From the sequence record PX915676.1: a DNA stretch of 64,000 bases, one strand, 5' to 3'. A program made the translations under genes and the position numbers. The DNA comes from a phage. Under the pieces are notes generated by a model. It was given only the letters and a program-made list of their open reading frames with translations. It was not told where the DNA came from and did no database searches. Shown piece after piece: positions 2,620 to 63,776 of this stretch (position 1 is its first letter; each line of letters starts with the position of its first letter).

Positions 2620-2861
2620 TGAACTCTTTCATCCCCGTAAGCTTTGCGTATCCGATAGTACTCATGATCACATTTGAATTGCTTAATGATTAACTTAATT
2701 TTCCACATAAGTTCTCTTTCAACCTTATATATAAGAGTTTAAAATTCTGATTTGACCGAATGGGGCTAGCCGCTCGCCGCGCGTTTCCTAAAAGGGGGGA
2801 GTCCTCATTTAAAAAAGGGTTATTGGCAATGCCTTTACCTTCCCTTTCGACGTTCCACCTT

Positions 2862-3279
2862 TCCCCGTGCCTACTCCCCGTTATTCTTTCCCCGTGTATA
2901 CCATCCTATTCATTAGCTACCCGTTTATTTAGTTCCCCTTTAAAGAGTGAGAGAAAGGCTATACTCTGATAATGATTAGATTAAGGCACTATGAATAGGC
3001 TAATAATACCCATAAGCAATAGCCCACATCCCCCATAGTTTGATTGTAAATAGTTTCAATAGTAATGATTATGAGTGCAATAATGATGTATGTATTAATT
3101 AAGTGGAAAGATTATGTTTGATGTTTATTGTTTCTTTTATTACTTTCTTTTTTCAGCGTACATGAGCGTAGCGAATGGTCTTTGATGTTTGAGTTAACTA
3201 ATTATTTAAGTGGTATATTATTACCGCACTATCTTGCTATGTTTCCCCGTGGTCTGTTCTGCGGTTGTGTGTTCCCCGT
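2862..3279. repeat. five copies of TCCCCGT (2862, 2875, 2889, 3244, 3273)
   Basis: Direct inspection; three copies spaced 13-14 nt apart, two more 350 nt downstream. Confidence 0.45.
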
Positions 3280-3445
3280 TTGCCCTGGTCTGTTGGTCTG
3301 CTACCCGTAGCGTCAGCGTAACACCTGTAGGATTAGTGTTATAAAGTAACAATATCCAGTAAGCTGATGCTCTGAGTATGGAAAGTTTAGTAAATTAAAT
3401 TTCTTTAGTTTTCAGTAGGATGCAAGAAAGTTAGAAAATAAATGG

Positions 3446-3474
3446 TTGACAGCCTTTTCCTTTATTATATAGTT
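3446..3474 (+). promoter_or_regulatory. sigma70-type early promoter (TTGACA-N16-TATAGT)
   Basis: Consensus -35 TTGACA at 3446-3451 and TATAGT at 3468-3473, about 45 nt upstream of first plus-strand gene. Confidence 0.55.
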
Positions 3475-3518
3475 GTCAGCGTAGTTTGCAGTTTTCATCA
3501 ACCAAAAGGATTAACAAA

Positions 3519-4391
3519 ATGTCAAAAGTAGCGATTAACCACTTGAACAAAGCAAACGAAAGTCTTTCCTCTTTAGGCTTAACTGTTGGTAGTCCTGATG
3601 CGTGGATGGAAAACGAAAGTGCACGTAAAGGATTCAAAAACTCTGTAATGCTGGCTTGCTTAATCATTAACTCTACTGCGAACGCCTTACAGTGTGAAGA
3701 TGAAAGCACGTTCAAAGAAAACGGTTTTACCGATATGCAGGACGCTATTAATTGCTACATTCAAGCAAATTTAGATAGCTGGAATCAGAAGGATTGGCCT
3801 GAGTCATGCCGTGATGTTAAGGCTGAATTATCCCGCTTGTCTGTCATGGTTGAAGCATGGAACAAGAAAAACAAGAAACAGCCAATCAAGCCTACTGTTG
3901 CAAGTAAGATAATGAAGTCTGTCAATCTGGCAAGTTATGCACTGGTTGCAGCTATTGGTGTTAGTGCACTGGTCACATCTCTTTCTGATAAGGCTATCGC
4001 TAGTCCTACTCCTGCAACTGATGCCGCTAGTGTCTTCTCTAGTTCCATCAATAAGGGTTGGATGATTTGCAACGGTGCAGATAGTGACGGTGCTACCATC
4101 GTGCTAAAGATGAAATTTAGCAACGCTACTAATGATGGCGTTCTCTTTCAATCTAAAACGTTAGATAATCAGCCTAACAGTGATCTAGTTCTCAAGCGTA
4201 CTGATAACGATGCGGATATGGTGACATTTGGCACTGTACAACGTTATGAAGACGTTAAAGCTGTAACCAACCTAGTGAGCTATGGCCCGATCAATGAGTC
4301 GATGATTGCTACAACTGTTTATAATAACGCTAATAACGCTGTTTATACCGTTCACGTTAGTTTAGCCAACTGTATTAAGGCTAGTAAGTAA
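3519..4391 (+). CDS. hypothetical early protein
   Basis: Track ORF trimmed to ATG 3519 (MSKVAINHLNK...) with AAAGGA SD; first gene after promoter. Confidence 0.6.
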   Translation: MSKVAINHLNKANESLSSLGLTVGSPDAWMENESARKGFKNSVMLACLIINSTANALQCEDESTFKENGFTDMQDAINCYIQANLDSWNQKDWPESCRDVKAELSRLSVMVEAWNKKNKKQPIKPTVASKIMKSVNLASYALVAAIGVSALVTSLSDKAIASPTPATDAASVFSSSINKGWMICNGADSDGATIVLKMKFSNATNDGVLFQSKTLDNQPNSDLVLKRTDNDADMVTFGTVQRYEDVKAVTNLVSYGPINESMIATTVYNNANNAVYTVHVSLANCIKASK

Positions 4392-8892: not shown

Positions 8893-9336
8893 GTGGCTAA
8901 ATCAAAAATCAGCATGAAGGGCGGGCGTTGTTTTTCTATCTCTGAACTGGAGAAAGAGAAACCGAAGGCAACTAATCACGTTAGTAAGCGTAGTTTAAAA
9001 CGTCGTGCTGCAAAGGCTGAGGCTGAATCCCACGTTCCTTCCAGTGTGGCAAAACGTGTAGGCCATCGTGTCCATCGTGCTGATGCGTTGTTGTTAGCTG
9101 ATCATAGACGTTCTTTGTTAAAGAGCGGGGGAGCTAAAACCGAAGAAGAGAAGAAGCTAGAAATCTTCTGTAATGGTCGCACTCGTGGTAAACAGAAGTT
9201 TAAGGGTAGCACGAAAGACCCGCAGGCATTCCCTAAGACAAGCCAGTGTGCACCTGATGTTTTCTACGCAGATAGTAAACACAAGTGGGGCGTTGAAAAA
9301 TACATCGACCCCATCAAAGAGGCAAGGGTTAAGTAG
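8893..9336 (+). CDS. hypothetical basic protein
   Basis: Track ORF 147 aa, Lys/Arg-rich; GTG start with AAAGGAA SD. Confidence 0.5.
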   Translation: MAKSKISMKGGRCFSISELEKEKPKATNHVSKRSLKRRAAKAEAESHVPSSVAKRVGHRVHRADALLLADHRRSLLKSGGAKTEEEKKLEIFCNGRTRGKQKFKGSTKDPQAFPKTSQCAPDVFYADSKHKWGVEKYIDPIKEARVK

Positions 9337-9416
9337 TAGGAATATAGCCCCCTCTTTTAGTACTGTGACGCTCTTTCTGTAGCGTCGTGCCCTCTCCCCA
9401 TTTGAAGCTTCCGCAT

Positions 9417-9439
9417 AGCCGCCTTTGAGCGGCTTTTTG
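9417..9439 (+). terminator. intrinsic terminator
   Basis: AGCCGC-CTTTGA-GCGGCT hairpin + TTTTT. Confidence 0.7.
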
Positions 9440-9501
9440 CGTTGCTGTAAGTGCATTTGCGAGTGTATTTATAGCAACGGTTATGTGTTGCTTTCAGGTT
9501 T

Positions 9502-9527
9502 GCCCCGGCTACGGCTGGGGCTTTTTT
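9502..9527 (+). terminator. intrinsic terminator
   Basis: GCCCCGGC-TACG-GCTGGGGC hairpin + TTTTTT. Confidence 0.85.
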
Positions 9528-9577
9528 ATGCCCGTAAAAACAGGAGGTATCAAGTTCTGATAACAACGGCCCAGCTA

Positions 9578-9967
9578 ATGTTGACATTGACTATTTATTA
9601 TGAGGCAGGGAATCAGCCAACCGCATGTAAGGCTTTAGTTGCGGATACCGTAATAAATAGAATGGCACAACGAAAACTGACCGCTGAACAGGTGATAAGA
9701 CAAAAGAACCAGTTTGAGTGGATTCCGGTACTATTAAAACAGGAGAAACCTTATAAACGTTATGTAAAGCTGATTCGTGATAAAAATCCGATGACTAAGC
9801 AAGCCATTGGAGAAAGCGAGCGGCTAGCTAAACGTGCCCTTAAGAAGAATTATGTTCCGCTGTACAGTGGGACTTACTTTCAGAGTAAGAGCGAAGGGGT
9901 GCCAAAATGGTATGCCAATCCTATGTATTGTGGTGATTTAGTGTTCGATAACAGCTCTAGGGAGTAA
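9578..9967 (+). CDS. SleB-like cell wall hydrolase domain protein (putative)
   Basis: Track ORF 9425-9967 trimmed because its 5' part spans two terminators; from ATG 9578: ...TACKALVADTVINRMAQRKL...QKNQFEW...YSGTYFQ...VPKWYANP resembles the SleB/Hydrolase_2 pattern; start codon uncertain (AGGAGG at 9542 has no canonical start at ideal spacing). Confidence 0.45.
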   Translation: MLTLTIYYEAGNQPTACKALVADTVINRMAQRKLTAEQVIRQKNQFEWIPVLLKQEKPYKRYVKLIRDKNPMTKQAIGESERLAKRALKKNYVPLYSGTYFQSKSEGVPKWYANPMYCGDLVFDNSSRE

Positions 9968-10166
9968 TCACTAGTGCCAGATTTGACAAACTAAATTCCT
10001 TTATAAACCAACCACTTAGTAAATTTATTGAAAAAGATGGTAGTATTCTGGGACTATAGGTAATGCTCTGTATATAGACCCTTTGAAAATTTCTTAGAAA
10101 ATAAGTTTACTAAATATAACTTACTTAAATAATATTACTTTTAATCTCTGATAAAGGGTAAATAAT

Positions 10167-10463
10167 ATGACTTTAGAAGTATATAAATTCCTTTTTGTAA
10201 GCTGTTTAACTATCAGCGTTCTAGGATTTATTGTTCTCAGAAACAAAGCAGCAAGCTGGGAGAGAATGTATAAATCCCTAGTCCGAGTGGATGAGATGTA
10301 TAATGAGAAAGTTAAAGTAACACTCAACGATCTTATTATGCAAGTTGAAGACAGAAACAAACGTCTTCAGAACCTCAATCATGAAGTGTTGCGCCTTGCT
10401 CGTGCTAATGAAGACTTGCGAGTGGCTATTGCTAAACAGCAGGAGATTAACAATGAAGCATGA
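10167..10463 (+). CDS. membrane-anchored coiled-coil protein
   Basis: Track ORF 98 aa; N-terminal TM (FLFVSCLTISVLGFIVL) then charged helical region. Confidence 0.55.
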   Translation: MTLEVYKFLFVSCLTISVLGFIVLRNKAASWERMYKSLVRVDEMYNEKVKVTLNDLIMQVEDRNKRLQNLNHEVLRLARANEDLRVAIAKQQEINNEA

Positions 10464-10710
10464 TATTAATACAGCCCCTGTAGTCAAGCAACTGAAAGAC
10501 CTGAAGGTGGGGAGTGTTTTTGAAACTGTTCCACCTAAAAATAAAATATATCTTACAGTAAAGCTAGATTCCTCAACCGTTTATTCAGCTAGTTGGAAGC
10601 CTGACGAAAGAGTAGTAGTAGATCTCACTTCGGATAGAATAACAATGTTGAGAAAAGATACTGTTGTTCAGGTAGTTGATAATGCTCGACTTACCAATAA
10701 GGTGGATTAA
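10453..10710 (+). CDS. small paralog family protein (G[DSE]VF motif family), member 1
   Basis: ATG 10453 with AGGAG SD; LKVGSVF...KIYLTV motif shared with 9 other small ORFs. Confidence 0.6.
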   Translation: MKHDINTAPVVKQLKDLKVGSVFETVPPKNKIYLTVKLDSSTVYSASWKPDERVVVDLTSDRITMLRKDTVVQVVDNARLTNKVD

Positions 10711-10712
10711 AG

Positions 10713-10949
10713 ATGAAAGTTAATATTAAATCCGATCGTACAATGCTTCGCTTAAATAACATGAAGCCGGGGGTTCTGTTTGAGCGTAAAGAATCCCTTT
10801 ACATTAGAACTGACACATTATACGCAGATAACTATGTCAACTGTGTTGATGTGGTAACTGGAAAGCTCATGCCTTTTAAACGGGATGAAGTTTGCCAAGT
10901 TCGCAGTGATCTCCACATAACCAATATAGAGACTAAAGATGAAGATTAA
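10713..10949 (+). CDS. small paralog family protein, member 2
   Basis: Track ORF; MKPGVLF...LYIRTD motif. Confidence 0.6.
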   Translation: MKVNIKSDRTMLRLNNMKPGVLFERKESLYIRTDTLYADNYVNCVDVVTGKLMPFKRDEVCQVRSDLHITNIETKDED

Positions 10950-11196
10950 TCTTGAAGTAAATGAACCGTCTTTGTGTGTTGGTGATCTCAAACTTGGAGA
11001 TGTATTCCAAATCAGGGAAACACGAGCAGATTTCTACATGGTTGTTCAGCTATTTACCCCACAGATTGAAGAGACCAAGCCTTCTGATGGTGGTTGTGTC
11101 GTCCTTAGTCTAACAAATAAGCAAGTCCTTAAGCTTAGCTCGAAAAGCAAGGTTGTTCTTCTTCATGATGTTGTTATTACCAACAAGGGTAAGTGA
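10939..11196 (+). CDS. small paralog family protein, member 3
   Basis: Track ORF; LKLGDVF...FYMVVQ motif. Confidence 0.6.
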   Translation: MKINLEVNEPSLCVGDLKLGDVFQIRETRADFYMVVQLFTPQIEETKPSDGGCVVLSLTNKQVLKLSSKSKVVLLHDVVITNKGK

Positions 11197-11415
11197 ATGG
11201 AAATTAAAGTAGTTGATTATCCTAAATATGCAAATGCAGAAGACGTTAAAAGTGGTGATGTTTTCTCTTACGATAGACGTTTCTGGCTGATGTTGGAAGA
11301 TAAAACTCCTGATGGTTTGTGTAAGGCCGCCGATCTGAACAGTGGTTCTGTTGAAGTCTTCGGTTTATCAACCACTGTTATGCCACGTCCTGATCTGTGT
11401 TTATCCCAAAAGTAA
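11197..11415 (+). CDS. small paralog family protein, member 4
   Basis: Track ORF; VKSGDVF...FWLMLE motif. Confidence 0.6.
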   Translation: MEIKVVDYPKYANAEDVKSGDVFSYDRRFWLMLEDKTPDGLCKAADLNSGSVEVFGLSTTVMPRPDLCLSQK

Positions 11416-31957: not shown

Positions 31958-32029
31958 TTGGTAGTAGATATGGTAACTCTCAAATGTATATAGAGTACAA
32001 TAAGAATTTGTATTTTACAGGAGAGAGTT

Positions 32030-47241: not shown

Positions 47242-47421
47242 ATGGGTAAATTTGATTATCGTTCATATGATGAAAACTCCTCCAACCGTGAATCTCGTAA
47301 AGACCAAAAGATTAAACATCAGCTGTTTGATCAGAGAACTGGTCGTATTCCTCGTGAGGGTAAGGTGAGTCATCGTGTAAACAAACGAGTTTGGGAAGAA
47401 GCTGATTATGGCGAAGTCTGA
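47242..47421 (+). CDS. small ORF (59 aa)
   Basis: ATG with AAGGA SD; below track cut-off. Confidence 0.4.
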   Translation: MGKFDYRSYDENSSNRESRKDQKIKHQLFDQRTGRIPREGKVSHRVNKRVWEEADYGEV

Positions 47422-47809
47422 GAAGACTCGCTGTAGTGGAATGTGGACTGAAGCTCGTTACAACTCTTTCATCAAGTCAGGGATTCGTTCTCTGACTAGA
47501 AAGTGGAAGCCCATGTTCGATGCACTAGCAGACGCCAAGACAGAGAAGAAGATTAATCCAAAGACAGGAAGACTGGCAATGCACTTTAAGTGTGCCATGT
47601 GTGGTTCTGACCACCCTGTAAAAGATATGGCTATTGACCACATAGAGCCTATAGTTCCCTTAGATCATGAAGCAACTTGGGATGAAATCATCTCTCGTGC
47701 TCTGTGTGAGAAAGAAGGTTTTCAGGTTCTATGTAAAGACCCTTGTCATAAGATTAAAACAAAAGAAGAGAATGATGCAAGAAAACAATTCAAAAAAGGA
47801 AATGAGTGA
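47408..47809 (+). CDS. HNH endonuclease
   Basis: CAMCGSDH...AIDHIEP...LCEKEG...CHKIK matches the HNH zinc-finger nuclease pattern. Confidence 0.75.
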   Translation: MAKSEKTRCSGMWTEARYNSFIKSGIRSLTRKWKPMFDALADAKTEKKINPKTGRLAMHFKCAMCGSDHPVKDMAIDHIEPIVPLDHEATWDEIISRALCEKEGFQVLCKDPCHKIKTKEENDARKQFKKGNE

Positions 47810-48029
47810 TGATCAAAAATCTACGCAACAAGTGCTTCGCTTTCGCTATCGCAATTGGAGAGGCGAGGTTGCTGACCGGTCCGTTATTCCACTCCGAACC
47901 TCCGTTGCTAGCTCCCGTTTTCATAACGGTGGCAAACCTTGTTGGATTATGACAGCGATAGATGTAGAGAAAGATGAGATTCGAGAGTTCAAACTCTCTG
48001 ACATTATTCAGTATTACGATTTAATCTAG
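47802..48029 (+). CDS. hypothetical protein
   Basis: Track ORF trimmed to ATG 47802 overlapping HNH stop. Confidence 0.45.
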   Translation: MSDDQKSTQQVLRFRYRNWRGEVADRSVIPLRTSVASSRFHNGGKPCWIMTAIDVEKDEIREFKLSDIIQYYDLI

Positions 48030-56601: not shown

Positions 56602-57384
56602 TTACTTTACACCAATGCTAGCCAAACGTCTGAGCACTGCTTGTGTTTGTGGACTGTACTGAGAACCTGCTGCATGTGGTGCACTTGCCCTCTGAACTGT
56701 TTGAGAAGTCGGAGGTTTACCAGCAAGCATAGCAGCTACACCTAATACTGCATTACCAAAGTTCTGTTGAGGCTTCTGATCTTCCCCTTCTTGTGCTTCA
56801 TCAGAGTAAAACTCTACTGGATTTCCGCCTAAAGCACCTGTCTTAGAAGCAGTAATGTCTGCCTGAGTTGGAGCTTGTGCGGCCTTCTCTCTATCTAACA
56901 AGTCAGGACTAAACTGATTGACTGGTTGAACAGCTTGTAAAGCTCCAACAGGGTTAGCAATCTGAGAAGCTGCATCACCATAGAAAGGAAGAAAGTGTTT
57001 GTTGTTCATTGAGTCAAGGGCTTGAGGTGTAAATCCCTTTTTACCAGCGAACATTTGCTTAGCACCACCAATGCCTTCTGAGTAACCAACCATCGCCTTC
57101 TTAACATCACCATTAAAAGCTTTTAAATTATCTCTAATATAACGAGCACCCATATCAATGTTCTTTGCTGGGTCAAGTCTGTCTTCTAGTTTGTAACCGT
57201 AGTCTTTAGCCAATCCTTTACTGATCTGCATTAAACCTACAGGACCAGTTCCAGAAGCCACTGTAGGACGACCACTAGACTCCCTTTGGATTACAGCATG
57301 AATCAAAGCAGCAGGAATCCCATACTTCTTTGAAGCCTGTTGAACCATTGGGTCTAGTTCTTCAATACCCATTTTAATTGCCAT
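56602..57384 (-). CDS. lytic transglycosylase (SLT domain), virion-associated
   Basis: AVIQRESSGRP...GPVGLMQI matches the SLT catalytic motif. Confidence 0.85.
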   Translation of the reverse strand: MAIKMGIEELDPMVQQASKKYGIPAALIHAVIQRESSGRPTVASGTGPVGLMQISKGLAKDYGYKLEDRLDPAKNIDMGARYIRDNLKAFNGDVKKAMVGYSEGIGGAKQMFAGKKGFTPQALDSMNNKHFLPFYGDAASQIANPVGALQAVQPVNQFSPDLLDREKAAQAPTQADITASKTGALGGNPVEFYSDEAQEGEDQKPQQNFGNAVLGVAAMLAGKPPTSQTVQRASAPHAAGSQYSPQTQAVLRRLASIGVK

Positions 57385-63284: not shown

Positions 63285-63776
63285 TTAATATTTACCTTCG
63301 GTGTAAAGATCAGCTTCTGCAACCCTTCTGTTATGAAGACCCTGACTTCTCTGCTTCTCTCCCCTTACCGTTATTTTATCCCAACGAAGAAATTCGGAAT
63401 AAACATCCCCTTTAACCTCTCCATTGATAACCTTCCTTAACTTAGATGTGCTCAAAGCCCCACTGCCAACATTGAAGTTGAAAGAAGTGAGTGCATCAAA
63501 CTCATGAACTAGTAAAGGAACCTTTATATTCTTCTGAGTAGCACGAACAGAGTCTTGTGTGTCTCTATCTAGCAGAGCTAGACAATCCTCTATAGAATAC
63601 GTTAATCCTTGTCTAACCGGATAACCATTCATATCGCGCGTAGCCCCTACACATATCGTCCAGATACCTGCGGAATCTTTATAAGCCTTTGTTCTCATAC
63701 CCTCATGCTTCATGATGAATTCCATTCCAGCTGGGCTTAAGTTTAGTTGTACAGGTGGCAATGCGACGTTATCCAT
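63285..63776 (-). CDS. endolysin, lysozyme (GH24, T4 lysozyme-like)
   Basis: HEGMRTKAYKDSAGIWTICVGAT matches the GH24 catalytic-region signature; AAAGGAGG SD. Confidence 0.85.
   Translation of the reverse strand: MDNVALPPVQLNLSPAGMEFIMKHEGMRTKAYKDSAGIWTICVGATRDMNGYPVRQGLTYSIEDCLALLDRDTQDSVRATQKNIKVPLLVHEFDALTSFNFNVGSGALSTSKLRKVINGEVKGDVYSEFLRWDKITVRGEKQRSQGLHNRRVAEADLYTEGKY

What the first reader, a model, noticed from the sequence alone, without database searches (positions are those of the whole stretch)
9578..10463. SleB-like cell wall hydrolase plus a TM coiled-coil protein in the early region
A putative peptidoglycan hydrolase and an adjacent membrane-anchored coiled-coil protein lie in the early region, separate from the late lysozyme and from the spanin pair. 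This could be a second lysis-related set, an entry/ejection function or something else. The hydrolase start is ambiguous (AGGAGG at 9542 has no canonical start codon at ideal spacing).
Basis: partly seen in the sequence, partly recalled or inferred. Interest (0 to 1): 0.35.

Follow-up and report, generated by a model that had tools for sequence, protein, structure and literature searches.

The report
Throttled SleB-like wall hydrolase, phiEco32-type phage
This is the already catalogued SleB/CwlJ-type cell-wall-cleaving enzyme of phiEco32-like coliphages plus an unrelated-looking small membrane protein next to it; the one new point is that the enzyme almost certainly starts seven codons earlier than any database record says, at a rare CTG start codon behind a terminator cluster, so it is probably made in very small amounts.

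Summary
The window is a Kuravirus (phiEco32-like) genome.

**The hydrolase**
- ORF 9578-9967 is phi32_117 / Paul gp123, a single-domain SleB/CwlJ-family hydrolase.
- Evidence: Pfam PF07486 above cut-off; profile match to SleB crystal structures at E=5e-17; AlphaFold pLDDT 93 with SleB as the only PDB fold match; invariant catalytic Glu.
- It has no signal peptide or membrane helix.
- It is under purifying selection (dN/dS 0.07-0.2).

**The membrane protein**
- ORF 10167-10463 is a conserved 98-aa protein with one transmembrane helix and a coiled coil.
- The "DNA helicase" label in databases is unfounded.

**The start codon**
- Relatives carry ATG or TTG exactly there, and every Gordonclarkvirinae locus examined (window plus fetched loci) carries CTG.
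- Changes between CTG and ATG 9578 are synonymous, and the predicted first helix needs those residues.

**Context**
- The gene follows a conserved terminator cluster with no visible promoter.
- The phage already has a late lysozyme and a virion transglycosylase, and two natural genomes have lost this gene.
- The best reading is therefore a low-level, dispensable accessory muralytic enzyme.
- A functional pairing with the membrane protein is not supported.

Known kind; modest interest.

The parts
9417..9434 (+). Intrinsic terminator-like hairpin T1 (AGCCGC-CTTTGA-GCGGCT followed by TTTTT). It is the first of the terminator cluster between the 147-aa gene (8893-9336) and the hydrolase.
   Evidence: Scan. 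The same hairpin is present in phiEco32. Equivalent clusters occur in L011, L013, L023 and L024.
9502..9527 (+). Intrinsic terminator T2 (GCCCCGGC-TACG-GCTGGGGC followed by TTTTTT), 15 nt upstream of the hydrolase Shine-Dalgarno sequence.
   Evidence: It is annotated as a terminator in phage Paul and conserved across Gordonclarkvirinae.
9542..9547 (+). Shine-Dalgarno sequence AGGAGG (AGGGGG in Suseptimavirus and Nieuwekanaalvirus), 9 nt upstream of CTG 9557.
9557..9967 (+). SleB/CwlJ-like cell wall hydrolase CDS as re-delimited here: 136 codons plus stop, with a proposed non-AUG (CTG) start. Database versions start at 9578 (129 aa), 9581 (128 aa) or at internal Met39 (101 aa).
   Evidence: Start. 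Family. Selection.
9602..9604 (+). GAG codon for Glu16, the putative catalytic glutamate in the motif IYYEAGNQP. It is invariant in 57 relatives and aligns with the Glu of 'VYGES' in SleB 4F55.
   Evidence: Papers cited state that a catalytic Glu is essential in SleB and in a SleB-like T6SS toxin.
9983..10079 (+). Conserved intergenic blocks between the two genes. Block 1 is TTGACA-AAACTAAATTCCTTTATAAA (9983-10007). Block 2 is GGTAATGCTCTGTATATAGAC (about 10059-10079). They are probably regulatory DNA for the downstream unit; their function is unknown.
   Evidence: Alignment: invariant even in relatives whose coding DNA is only 65-72% identical. Block 1 is unique in the window. Block 2 resembles the P68 middle-promoter site at 31985. 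There is no convincing RNA structure.
10167..10463 (+). 98-aa membrane-anchored coiled-coil protein (phi32_116). The predicted transmembrane helix spans residues about 8-24 (10188-10238). The predicted topology is N-terminus out with a cytoplasmic C-terminal coiled coil.
   Evidence: The 'DNA helicase' label traces to PHROG 12154. There are no Pfam, NCBIfam or PADLOC family matches.
63285..63776 (-). Context: the late endolysin (Phage_lysozyme), which sits next to the class III holin in phage Paul's annotation.
56602..57384 (-). Context: internal virion protein with an SLT lytic transglycosylase domain, the likely entry-associated wall-cleaving enzyme.

Best explanation
**Identity and start.** The gene encodes a 136-residue, single-domain SleB/CwlJ-family glycan-strand-cleaving enzyme, most likely a lytic transglycosylase like SleB, with an intact catalytic glutamate (Glu16). 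Translation most likely starts at the near-cognate codon CTG 9557 (less likely at the adjacent ATA 9560), which is served by the strong AGGAGG 9 nt upstream. It most likely does not start at ATG 9578.

**Expression.** The gene is the first one after a conserved cluster of intrinsic terminators, and no promoter of its own is recognisable. Transcription therefore depends on read-through or antitermination from the early promoters upstream. Combined with the weak start codon, this predicts very low, delayed-early expression.

**Role.** The protein has no signal peptide, SAR domain or membrane anchor, so it is made in the cytoplasm, where it has no substrate. It can reach peptidoglycan only when the late holin permeabilises the inner membrane. 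It would then act as a minor accessory muralytic enzyme alongside the T4-lysozyme-type endolysin. It is beneficial enough to stay under purifying selection but is dispensable for phage viability.

**The neighbour.** The adjacent 98-aa membrane protein is a separate, conserved early-region gene of unknown role. Its coiled coil faces the cytoplasm. It is probably not a mechanistic partner of the hydrolase.

**What is shown and what is inferred.**
- Shown: family, fold, conserved Glu, purifying selection, start-codon conservation pattern, terminators, natural knock-outs.
- Inferred: actual use of CTG, low expression, holin-dependent access, accessory lysis role.

**My confidence by part.** Family identity about 0.95. 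Start at 9557 about 0.75. Accessory-lysin role about 0.4.
For: **Family**
- PF07486 scores 31.9 bits against a cut-off of 27.
- The 57-sequence profile hits SleB 4F55 and 4FET at E=5e-17 over residues 4-131.
- The AlphaFold model has pLDDT 93.4. The SleB catalytic domains are its only PDB fold matches (probability 1.0, TM 0.60-0.65).
- Many phage proteins named 'SleB' match in the BFVD viral structure library.
- Glu16 and Arg35 are invariant in 57 relatives.

**Start**
- In L023 and L024 an ATG lies at the position of window 9557. In L011, L013 and Privateer it is TTG. In every Gordonclarkvirinae locus examined (23 fetched loci, several of them the same genome fetched twice, plus the window) it is CTG. 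The SD sequence always precedes it.
- In Suseptimavirus and Nieuwekanaalvirus there is no ATG at all before Met39, and in-frame stops lie directly upstream.
- The only variable sites between 9557 and 9578 are synonymous third positions.
- All homologous genes are exactly 136 codons when counted from this position.
- About 40 distant stand-alone relatives align from their residue 1-3.
- The predicted helix 4-17, which carries Glu16, includes residues upstream of Met8.
- CUG and AUA initiate at roughly 1-2% of AUG in E. coli.

**Transcription**
- Terminators are found at 9417-9434 and 9502-9521, with no sigma-70-like or AATGTA-type promoter between them and the gene.
- Terminator clusters occupy the same place in phiEco32, L011, L013, L023, L024 and 7-11.

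**Localisation**
- The maximum 19-residue hydropathy is 0.71, so there is no transmembrane or signal segment.

**Redundancy and dispensability**
- The window also encodes a late Phage_lysozyme and a virion SLT-domain protein.
- Privateer's authors assign lysis to a different enzyme.
- myPSH1131 and a 76-kb metagenomic genome carry independent disruptions of the gene.
- The protein was not detected in the SU10 proteome.

**Selection**
- dN/dS is 0.07-0.20.
Against: - No experiment shows initiation at CTG. Kuraviruses have a derived ATG at codon 8 that may be used instead or in addition.
- Low expression is inferred only from sequence signals. A promoter type that I cannot recognise may exist, or antitermination may be efficient.
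- An accessory-lysis role is a default inference. Nothing here shows muralytic activity on E. coli peptidoglycan.
- Bacillus SleB needs muramic-delta-lactam, which E. coli lacks.
- Strong purifying selection on a gene that is both throttled and redundant is somewhat paradoxical and may point to a different, non-lysis function.
- The two 'natural knock-outs' could be assembly errors or laboratory or metagenomic variants of reduced fitness.
Confidence: 0.55

Rival explanations
1. The database gene models are right. Translation starts at ATG 9578 in Kuravirus (129 aa) and at TTG 9581 in Suseptimavirus and Nieuwekanaalvirus (128 aa). The conserved upstream sequence is a 5' leader, not coding sequence.
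For: - ATG and TTG are canonical start codons.
- Gene callers and curators (Paul, phiEco32, SU10) chose them.
- Kuraviruses acquired ATG at this codon by two base changes from CTT, which could reflect selection for a usable start.
Against: - There is no SD sequence within 15 nt of 9578 or 9581. The strong SD lies 30 nt upstream, 9 nt from CTG.
- The seven upstream codons change only synonymously, and they match the N-termini (M-L-T-T-A-A-L-L) of relatives that start with ATG or TTG at that position.
- The truncated protein would lose half of the helix that carries the catalytic Glu.
- ATG 9578 is absent from two of the three genera.
Confidence: 0.2
2. The hydrolase and the membrane-anchored coiled-coil protein form a functional pair. 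The membrane protein would tether, inhibit or release the enzyme at the inner membrane, as Bacillus SleB is held by membrane-anchored YpeB, or it would act as a dedicated holin-like exporter. Together they would form a second, early wall-remodelling or lysis module.
For: - The two genes are adjacent in all Gordonclarkvirinae and also in three more distant lineages (L011, L013, L023), where the hydrolase is only 58-74% identical and the neighbour about 32% identical to the window's proteins.
- Both proteins would face the cytoplasmic side of the membrane.
- SleB in Bacillus depends on a membrane-anchored helical partner.
- In Certrevirus a small membrane protein next to a SleB-like gene has been proposed as a holin.
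Against: - The whole region is syntenic in these phages, so adjacency alone carries little weight.
- About 200 nt with conserved, probably regulatory, blocks separates the genes.
- The hydrolase occurs without this neighbour in L024, 7-11 and Privateer.
- Both natural hydrolase knock-outs keep the membrane gene intact.
- One transmembrane helix with a charged cytoplasmic coil is not a typical holin.
- No interaction was or could be tested here.
Confidence: 0.12
3. The protein has been co-opted for a non-lytic, cytoplasmic role. It would be a regulator or binding protein, in the way T7 lysozyme binds T7 RNA polymerase, or it would act on a cytoplasmic muropeptide or precursor during host takeover.
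For: - It has an early-type genomic position, no export signal and very low predicted dosage.
- It is strongly conserved even though the phage has two other wall-cleaving enzymes.
Against: - The catalytic Glu and the substrate-groove motifs (NR, QF.W, F/Y..S, W, G.h.F) are conserved across the family, as expected for an active glycan-cleaving enzyme.
- From general knowledge, the MurNAc-beta-1,4-GlcNAc bond cleaved by this enzyme class does not exist in cytoplasmic precursors.
- No partner or alternative function is indicated by any search.
Confidence: 0.08
4. It is a virion-associated enzyme that opens the wall during DNA ejection.
For: Many podoviruses carry a wall-cleaving enzyme in the particle. 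Only a small copy number would be needed, which is compatible with weak expression.
Against: - The phage already has an internal virion protein with an SLT domain.
- The gene lies among early-type genes, on the opposite strand from the structural genes.
- It was not among the 34 proteins detected in SU10 preparations, nor mentioned among Privateer's virion proteins.
Confidence: 0.03
5. It is a decaying, functionless relic. The weak start, the position behind terminators and the occasional disruptions would all be signs of loss.
For: The non-AUG start, two independent disruptions and functional redundancy.
Against: - dN/dS is 0.07-0.20 across lineages whose synonymous sites are near saturation.
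- Gene length is exactly conserved.
- The catalytic Glu is invariant.
- CTG plus SD is itself invariant across three genera, which suggests that the weak start is maintained rather than drifting.
Confidence: 0.02

Closest known systems
phiEco32 gp117 (phi32_117), SU10_0116 (UniProt A0A0B4N207, 'Cell wall hydrolase SleB domain-containing protein') and Paul gp123 ('cell wall hydrolase')
   Same: It is the same gene. The protein is 100% identical over all 136 residues, including the seven upstream codons, in about 60 Kuravirus records. It occupies the same position after the terminators and before the membrane-protein gene.
   Different: Nothing differs biologically. The difference lies in the gene model: the records start at ATG (129 aa), at TTG (128 aa) or at internal Met39 (101 aa, which lacks the catalytic Glu), whereas I propose the 136-aa CTG-initiated form. 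No function has been tested for any of them.
Bacillus spore cortex-lytic enzymes SleB (catalytic domain, PDB 4F55 and 4FET) and CwlJ
   Same: The fold and the catalytic-Glu motif are shared. Like CwlJ, it is a single catalytic domain with no peptidoglycan-binding domain.
   Different: - Sequence identity to the SleB catalytic domains in the structural alignments is about 16-17%.
- It carries an extra helical hairpin (residues about 60-95) relative to SleB.
- It has no signal peptide and no N-terminal peptidoglycan-binding domain.
- Its host peptidoglycan lacks muramic-delta-lactam.
- It is encoded by a virulent coliphage rather than a sporulation regulon.
Extra SleB-domain hydrolases encoded far from the holin in other Gram-negative phages: 7-11 gp111, Privateer gp098, GAP52, the SleB-domain ORFs far from the holin in the Salmonella phages, and Vequintavirinae such as CB7_83
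   Same: This is the same pattern: a second, small Hydrolase_2 protein outside the lysis cassette with an unresolved role. 7-11 also has a terminator just upstream, and Privateer also has a non-ATG (TTG) start.
   Different: The Vequintavirinae proteins have a signal peptide and an overlapping candidate holin, and are toxic on expression. This protein has neither. In 7-11 the homologue is annotated as the endolysin, whereas kuraviruses have a separate lysozyme and holin.
SleB-like T6SS effector T6EC3
   Same: It is a SleB-fold enzyme that acts on Gram-negative peptidoglycan when it is in the periplasm, and it depends on the equivalent glutamate. This shows that the fold can work on E. coli walls.
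   Different: It is delivered by a secretion system and paired with a periplasmic immunity protein. There is no homology beyond the fold, and no immunity-like gene is evident here.
i-spanins (lambda Rz type), considered for the membrane protein
   Same: Both have an N-terminal transmembrane helix followed by a coiled coil and are of similar size.
   Different: Here the charge distribution places the coil in the cytoplasm. There is no embedded or adjacent lipoprotein ORF. The gene lies in the early-type region and is unrelated in sequence.

Membership tests
SleB/CwlJ cell wall hydrolase family (Pfam PF07486, Hydrolase_2) | Significant match to the family profile | tested here: met
   PF07486 at E=2e-7, 31.9 bits against a gathering score of 27. 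All close and distant relatives carry PF07486. The family profile hits SleB 4F55 and 4FET at E=5e-17.
SleB/CwlJ cell wall hydrolase family (Pfam PF07486, Hydrolase_2) | SleB catalytic-domain fold | tested here: met
   The AlphaFold2 model has pLDDT 93.4. By Foldseek against the PDB, only 4FET and 4F55 match, with probability 1.0, TM 0.57-0.65 and 135 aligned columns.
SleB/CwlJ cell wall hydrolase family (Pfam PF07486, Hydrolase_2) | Catalytic glutamate at the end of helix 1 | tested here: met
   Glu16 is invariant in 57 sequences and aligns with the Glu of 'VYGES' in 4F55. Papers state that the Glu is essential. That this particular Glu is the published catalytic residue rests on my recollection of the SleB structure papers, which I could not open.
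SleB/CwlJ cell wall hydrolase family (Pfam PF07486, Hydrolase_2) | Lytic transglycosylase activity on peptidoglycan (1,6-anhydro-MurNAc products) | not testable with these tools
   This needs purified protein, sacculi and muropeptide analysis.
SleB proper (as opposed to CwlJ-like single-domain members) | [quoted passage not shown] | tested here: not met
   The whole 136-aa protein is the catalytic domain. There is no hydrophobic N-terminal segment (maximum hydropathy 0.71). 'CwlJ-like single domain' is therefore the more accurate description.
Canonical holin-dependent endolysin of a lysis cassette | Encoded next to the holin/spanins and expressed late | tested here: not met
   The holin and Phage_lysozyme pair lies among the late genes (window 63285-63776 for the lysozyme). 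This gene lies in the early-type cluster, on the opposite strand from the late genes.
Canonical holin-dependent endolysin of a lysis cassette | Required for host lysis | tested here: inconclusive
   Two natural genomes have the gene disrupted, which suggests dispensability. No lysis phenotype data exist.
SAR (signal-anchor-release) endolysin | N-terminal weakly hydrophobic transmembrane-like segment of about 20 residues preceded by positive charge | tested here: not met
   Only 15 uncharged residues precede Glu16, and there are no N-terminal basic residues. Hydropathy over 19 residues is 0.71. The segment is helix 1 of the conserved fold.
Virion-associated peptidoglycan hydrolase | Present in purified particles and encoded with structural genes | tested here: not met
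   It is not among the SU10 proteins detected by mass spectrometry. It is encoded in the early-type cluster. A virion SLT-domain protein already exists. The proteomics were not targeted, so very low copy number is not excluded.
Two-component spanin (i-spanin), for the 98-aa protein | N-in/C-out topology with a periplasmic coiled coil, and a cognate outer-membrane lipoprotein gene embedded in or next to it | tested here: not met
   Basic residues follow the transmembrane helix (RNK..R..K) in the window and in distant homologues, which predicts a cytoplasmic coil. No lipobox-bearing ORF overlaps or follows the gene.
DNA helicase (database label of phi32_116 and PHROG 12154), for the 98-aa protein | Helicase/ATPase domain with Walker motifs | tested here: not met
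   The protein is 98 aa, consisting of a transmembrane helix and a coiled coil, with no Pfam or NCBIfam hit. There is only a 17-bit coiled-coil-type similarity to a DnaB-like PHROG.

The most novel reading that the evidence does not exclude
The SleB-like enzyme may be deliberately kept at trace level. A conserved terminator cluster plus an invariant CTG start codon would maintain a two-layer throttle across at least three genera.

On this reading it works early in infection together with the neighbouring membrane-tethered coiled-coil protein, as a phage analogue of the Bacillus SleB-YpeB arrangement. The pair would carry out a non-lysis task, such as local wall remodelling, blocking septation, or excluding superinfecting phages.

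My evidence does not exclude this. It does not support it beyond the conserved adjacency and the unusual expression signals.
Probability: 0.08. Interest if true: 0.6.

Novelty: already known. Interest (0 to 1): 0.25.

Why it matters
As a feature, this is an ordinary gene that is already annotated. It is identical to phiEco32 gp117 and is already labelled a SleB-domain cell wall hydrolase in several records. Extra SleB-like hydrolases outside the lysis cassette are a recognised, unexplained pattern in phages of Gram-negative bacteria.

Two points have practical value.

1. **The gene model is wrong or inconsistent in every record examined.**
   - The records give 129, 128 or 101 aa, and the 101-aa form lacks the catalytic residue.
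   - Anyone who expresses the annotated ORF to test it as an enzybiotic or lysin would use a protein missing half of its catalytic helix.
   - The corrected 136-aa form, with Met in place of the CTG-encoded Leu, is the one to clone.

2. **The start codon and terminators form a natural, testable case.**
   - A CTG start behind a strong Shine-Dalgarno sequence, invariant across three genera while relatives use ATG or TTG, may be a maintained near-cognate initiation codon in a coliphage.
   - Together with the conserved terminator cluster, it offers a handle on the delayed-early (read-through or antitermination) layer of phiEco32-type gene expression, which the 7-11 study left open.

What a third wall-cleaving enzyme does in these phages remains an open but modest question.

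Tried and rejected
**Searches that gave little or nothing**
- A PDB sequence search with a narrow profile of close relatives found nothing relevant. It worked only after the profile was widened.
- The first AlphaFold run, with 9 close sequences, was poor (pLDDT 65). I replaced it with a 57-sequence alignment.
- Rfam on 9200-10300 gave only sub-threshold matches caused by the terminator hairpins.
- NCBIfam and PADLOC gave no meaningful hits for either protein.
- The search for the gp36 promoter motif (TAATGTATA with at most 1 mismatch, AATGTA core) found no site upstream of the hydrolase. The total count equals chance expectation.
- The IMG/VR scan with the protein profile returned few loci. 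The viral and metagenome DNA pattern scans added only more CTG-bearing kuraviruses.

**Ideas considered and dropped**
- An RNA structure in the conserved intergenic blocks: the consensus fold is only -6.4 kcal/mol with no useful covariation, so I rejected it.
- A SAR or signal sequence in the hydrophobic N-terminus: it is too short, and it is helix 1 of the fold, so I rejected it.
- Translational coupling through the overlapping TGA in 'CTGATAA': there is no conserved upstream ORF, and phiEco32 has different upstream DNA, so I did not pursue it.
- The long upstream ORF extension from TTG 9425: it runs through both terminators, and in most relatives it is closed by in-frame stops, so I rejected it.

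**Not resolved**
- I looked for the spanin pair at the overlapping ORFs 47408-48029. They do not look like spanins, and I did not search further.
- Four papers could not be opened: Pavlova 2012 on phiEco32 temporal classes, Savalia 2008 on the phiEco32 proteome, and Li 2012 on the SleB structure. The temporal class therefore rests on synonymy with SU10 and on secondary descriptions.
Full report
**What the window is.** The region 9300-10700 is 98.4% identical to Escherichia phage ES17 and about 97-98% identical to phiEco32, SU10 and about 70 other records. All are Gordonclarkvirinae, mostly Kuravirus. The + strand of this part of the window runs in the direction of the early/middle gene cluster. 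The late structural genes are on the - strand from about 48.4 kb. In SU10, CDSs 69-125 are classed as early by analogy with phiEco32. The two genes of the finding correspond to SU10_0116 and SU10_0115, to phi32_117 and phi32_116, and to Paul gp123 and gp122.

**The observation.**
- The first matches Pfam Hydrolase_2 (PF07486) just above the curated threshold (31.9 against 27 bits).
- Several database records already call it 'cell wall hydrolase', and UniProt names the SU10 copy 'Cell wall hydrolase SleB domain-containing protein'.
- The second ORF has no family match.
- The second ORF has one clear transmembrane segment, with hydropathy 2.12 for the best 19-residue window.
- Its C-terminal part has regular heptads, with 7 of 8 a/d positions hydrophobic.
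- Its RefSeq/PHROG label 'DNA helicase' comes from PHROG 12154, whose name has no basis in a 98-residue membrane protein.
- Both genes evolve under purifying selection: dN/dS is 0.07-0.20 for the hydrolase and 0.08-0.27 for the membrane protein.

**How good the hydrolase assignment is.**
- A profile made only from close relatives finds nothing in the PDB. This shows how far the protein has diverged from SleB.
- An exhaustive phmmer search of 1.8 billion representative proteins found 42 relatives. Most are stand-alone proteins of 125-145 residues.
- A profile of 57 relatives hits the SleB catalytic domains of B. cereus (4F55) and B. anthracis (4FET) at E=5e-17 over residues 4-131.
- With that alignment, AlphaFold2 gives a confident model (pLDDT 93.4).
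- The only PDB fold matches to that model are the same SleB domains (probability 1.0, TM 0.57-0.65).
- Its matches among viral models are dozens of phage 'SleB' proteins.
- Glu16 (motif IYYEAGNQP) is invariant in all 57 sequences and aligns with the glutamate of 'VYGES' in SleB.
- Papers state that this glutamate is essential in SleB, and that the equivalent one is essential in a SleB-like T6SS toxin that kills E. coli from the periplasm.
- The protein is the catalytic domain and nothing more. It has no signal peptide, no peptidoglycan-binding domain and no membrane segment. In architecture it is CwlJ-like rather than SleB-like.
- Relative to SleB it carries an extra helical hairpin at residues about 60-95.

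**The start codon.** This is where the data go beyond existing annotation. After AGGAGG (9542-9547) the in-frame codons are TAT CAA GTT CTG ATA ACA ACG GCC CAG CTA ATG TTG. Databases disagree on the start: 129 aa from ATG 9578 (phiEco32, SU10, Paul), 128 aa from TTG 9581 (4E8, PAS59), or 101 aa from internal Met39 (SU7, EP335, 101114UKE3, myPSH1131). The last form lacks the catalytic Glu. Five lines of evidence place the real start at CTG 9557.
1. Relatives have a canonical start exactly there, preceded by the same kind of SD sequence. It is ATG in L023 (58% identity) and L024 (45%), and TTG in L011, L013 and Privateer. Their N-termini (M-L-T/S-T-A-A/V-L-L/I-L-T-L-T) match the window's L-I-T-T-A-Q-L-M-L-T-L-T.
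2. In Suseptimavirus and Nieuwekanaalvirus, codon 8 is CTT rather than ATG, and TAG TAA lie in frame directly before GTT CTG. No canonical start is therefore available near the SD sequence.
3. Within Gordonclarkvirinae, the only variable sites between 9557 and 9578 are synonymous third positions (ACA/ACG, ACG/ACA, GCC/GCA).
4. Counted from this codon, all homologous genes are exactly 136 codons, and distant stand-alone relatives align from their residues 1-3.
5. The helix that ends in Glu16 spans residues 4-17 in the model and has the same length in SleB. Starting at Met8 would remove half of it.

A pattern search that left the first base of this codon free found CTG in every one of the 23 fetched loci that hold the motif. 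Several of these are the same genome fetched twice. They cover three genera and six metagenomic contigs. The window itself also has CTG.

CUG and AUA are near-cognate initiators that work at roughly 1-2% of AUG in E. coli. I therefore propose a CTG-initiated (fMet) 136-residue protein made at low level. Kuraviruses have in addition acquired ATG at codon 8, so a shorter isoform cannot be excluded.

**Transcription context.**
- The gene is the first one after two good intrinsic terminators (9417-9434 and 9502-9521, each followed by a T-run). These lie in a strongly structured 220-nt spacer (z = -3.3).
- No sigma-70-like site on the + strand and no gp36-type (AATGTA) motif lies between the terminators and the gene.
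- The mapped or predicted early promoters of SU10 lie about 3.4 kb upstream.
- A terminator cluster occupies the same place in phiEco32, where an extra roughly 0.8-kb gene has been inserted between terminator and SD sequence.
- The same is true of the distant relatives L011, L013, L023 and L024 and of Salmonella phage 7-11.
- The authors of the 7-11 transcription study noted that some antitermination or read-through mechanism must exist in these phages.
- By inference, the hydrolase is a delayed-early gene whose transcription depends on read-through. Weak transcription and weak initiation would combine to give low expression.

**Why it is probably not the lysin, not an entry enzyme, and not essential.**
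- The window encodes a T4-type lysozyme at 63285-63776 (-), which lies next to a class III holin in Paul's annotation.
- It also encodes an internal virion protein with an SLT transglycosylase domain at 56602-57384 (-). The SleB-like protein is thus a third wall-cleaving enzyme.
- Homologues sit in the equivalent non-structural region of other C3-morphotype podophages (7-11, GAP52, Privateer and Aeromonas LAh phages).
- Privateer's curators assigned lysis to a different endopeptidase.
- The protein was not among the 34 proteins detected in SU10 preparations, although six early proteins were detected.
- Two genomes have lost the gene independently, and both keep the downstream conserved blocks and the membrane-protein gene.
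- In phage myPSH1131, a 43-nt segment covering helix 1 and Glu16 is replaced by 32 unrelated nucleotides, which shifts the frame.
- A 76-kb metagenomic genome, seen in two samples, has a 158-nt deletion (9815-9972) that removes the last third of the gene.
- The gene is thus dispensable for viability, yet generally maintained by selection.

**The membrane protein and the 'pair' idea.**
- Homologues of the 98-aa protein are confined to this phage group.
- They lie next to the hydrolase also in L011, L013 and L023, at about 32% identity in L011 and L013.
- Basic residues follow the transmembrane helix in all of them, which predicts a cytoplasmic coiled coil. That is unlike a spanin, and no lipoprotein ORF is embedded.
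- Arguing against a functional pair, the entire neighbourhood is syntenic in these phages.
- The hydrolase lacks this neighbour in L024, 7-11 and Privateer.
- The 200-nt spacer contains blocks conserved even where coding DNA is only 65-72% identical.
- Block 1 is TTGACA-AAACTAAATTCCYTTATAAA, which is unique in the window.
- Block 2 is ..TAATG.(A/T)CTGTATATAGAC, which resembles the P68 middle promoter at 31985.
- These blocks look like DNA-level regulatory elements for a separate downstream unit rather than an RNA structure.
- An SleB-YpeB-like tethering relationship remains a speculative possibility that I could not test.

**Mechanism I commit to.** It is a CwlJ-like single-domain glycan-strand-cleaving enzyme, made in trace amounts in the cytoplasm from a CTG start on read-through transcripts. 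It gains access to the wall only when the holin fires, and it acts as a minor accessory to the lysozyme. My confidence is about 0.95 for the family, about 0.75 for the start, and about 0.4 for the role. The main tension is that strong purifying selection on a throttled, redundant and occasionally lost gene hints at a condition-specific or non-lysis role that sequence analysis cannot reveal.

**Comparison with what is known, and novelty.**
- The gene is identical to one sequenced in 2008 and is already labelled as a SleB-domain hydrolase.
- Second SleB-like hydrolases far from the holin are repeatedly noted in Gram-negative phages, for example in several Salmonella phages whose holin-adjacent endolysin is a Peptidase M15C enzyme, and in Vequintavirinae.
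- I therefore rate the feature as already known.
- As far as the papers and records I could read show, three things are not in the records. First, the corrected 136-aa gene model with an invariant CTG start. Second, the conserved terminator-then-hydrolase arrangement. Third, the two natural knock-outs.
- These are useful corrections and a small, testable case of maintained near-cognate initiation, not a new kind of system.

Noticed in passing
window 10453-11415 (+); also L020 (phage 7-11) 2506-2733 and 3410-3667: Four tandem small genes (10453-10710, 10713-10949, 10939-11196, 11197-11415; 72-85 aa) look like paralogues that share an N-terminal motif of the type 'L/V-K-x-G-D/S/E-V-F'. Similar small proteins flank the SleB-like gene in 7-11 (gp112 and gp110: 'NCGEVF', 'KCGEVV'). 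Their function is unknown.
   Followed up: no
window 9983-10007 and about 10059-10079: These are intergenic blocks conserved even in relatives whose coding DNA is only 65-72% identical.
- Block 1 has a perfect TTGACA, but only 13 nt separate it from TATAAA, so it is not a standard sigma-70 promoter.
- Block 2 (CTGTATATAGAC) resembles the P68 middle promoter (AAATGTATATAGAG at 31982-31995) but lacks the AA of the AATGTA core.
- L013 has an exact AATGTA here, and L011 has an insertion containing TAATGTAT.
- They are possibly a gp36-dependent or regulator-bound promoter for the downstream unit.
   Followed up: partly
L002 (phiEco32) 2724-3540, equivalent to window about 9528-9541: The short stretch between terminator T2 and the hydrolase SD sequence is an insertion site. 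phiEco32, SkaterBoy_Bas90 and others carry an extra roughly 0.8-kb gene there (phi32_119, labelled 'agglutinating adhesin' or 'tail protein') plus a doubtful small ORF (phi32_118). The annotated start of phi32_119 overlaps the terminator, so that gene model is probably also too long.
   Followed up: partly
L015 1669-1974, L016 1682-1987, L017 1671-1976, L018 1671-1976: In SU7, EP335, 101114UKE3 and myPSH1131 the hydrolase is annotated from internal Met39 (101 aa). That form lacks the catalytic Glu. The BFVD model of the EP335 version accordingly does not superpose on the full-length model (TM 0.28).
   Followed up: yes
window 10167-10463; RefSeq phi32_116, EP335 ORF116, PHROG 12154: The 98-aa membrane coiled-coil protein is labelled 'DNA helicase' in RefSeq and PHROGs. 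This is an annotation error that propagates through phage records.
   Followed up: yes
window 9337-9556: The 220-nt spacer upstream of the hydrolase folds much better than shuffled controls (-87 kcal/mol, z = -3.3). In the minimum-energy fold, but not in the centroid, a CCCCCUCUU stretch near 9348-9356 pairs with the AGGAGG SD sequence, which could add a further layer of translational masking. I did not test this for covariation.
   Followed up: no
window 56602-57384 (-), 63285-63776 (-), 9557-9967 (+): The genome encodes three different peptidoglycan glycan-strand-cleaving folds: an SLT domain in an internal virion protein, a T4-type lysozyme next to the holin, and the SleB-like enzyme.
   Followed up: partly
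window 47408-47809 (+) and 47667-48029 (+): These are two overlapping ORFs at the end of the rightward cluster. The first has a Cys/His-rich pattern (CAMCGSDHP...DHIEPIV) reminiscent of an HNH-type nuclease. They are not the spanin pair. I did not run them against any library.
   Followed up: no
L011, L013, L023 (Logan metagenome contigs): A sister group of uncultured phages shares the local gene order (about 300-aa gene, small genes, about 148-aa gene, terminators, SleB-like gene, membrane coiled-coil gene). Downstream it carries TerB- and KilA-N-domain genes that were not seen in the equivalent kuravirus stretch. One contig is 96 kb.
   Followed up: no
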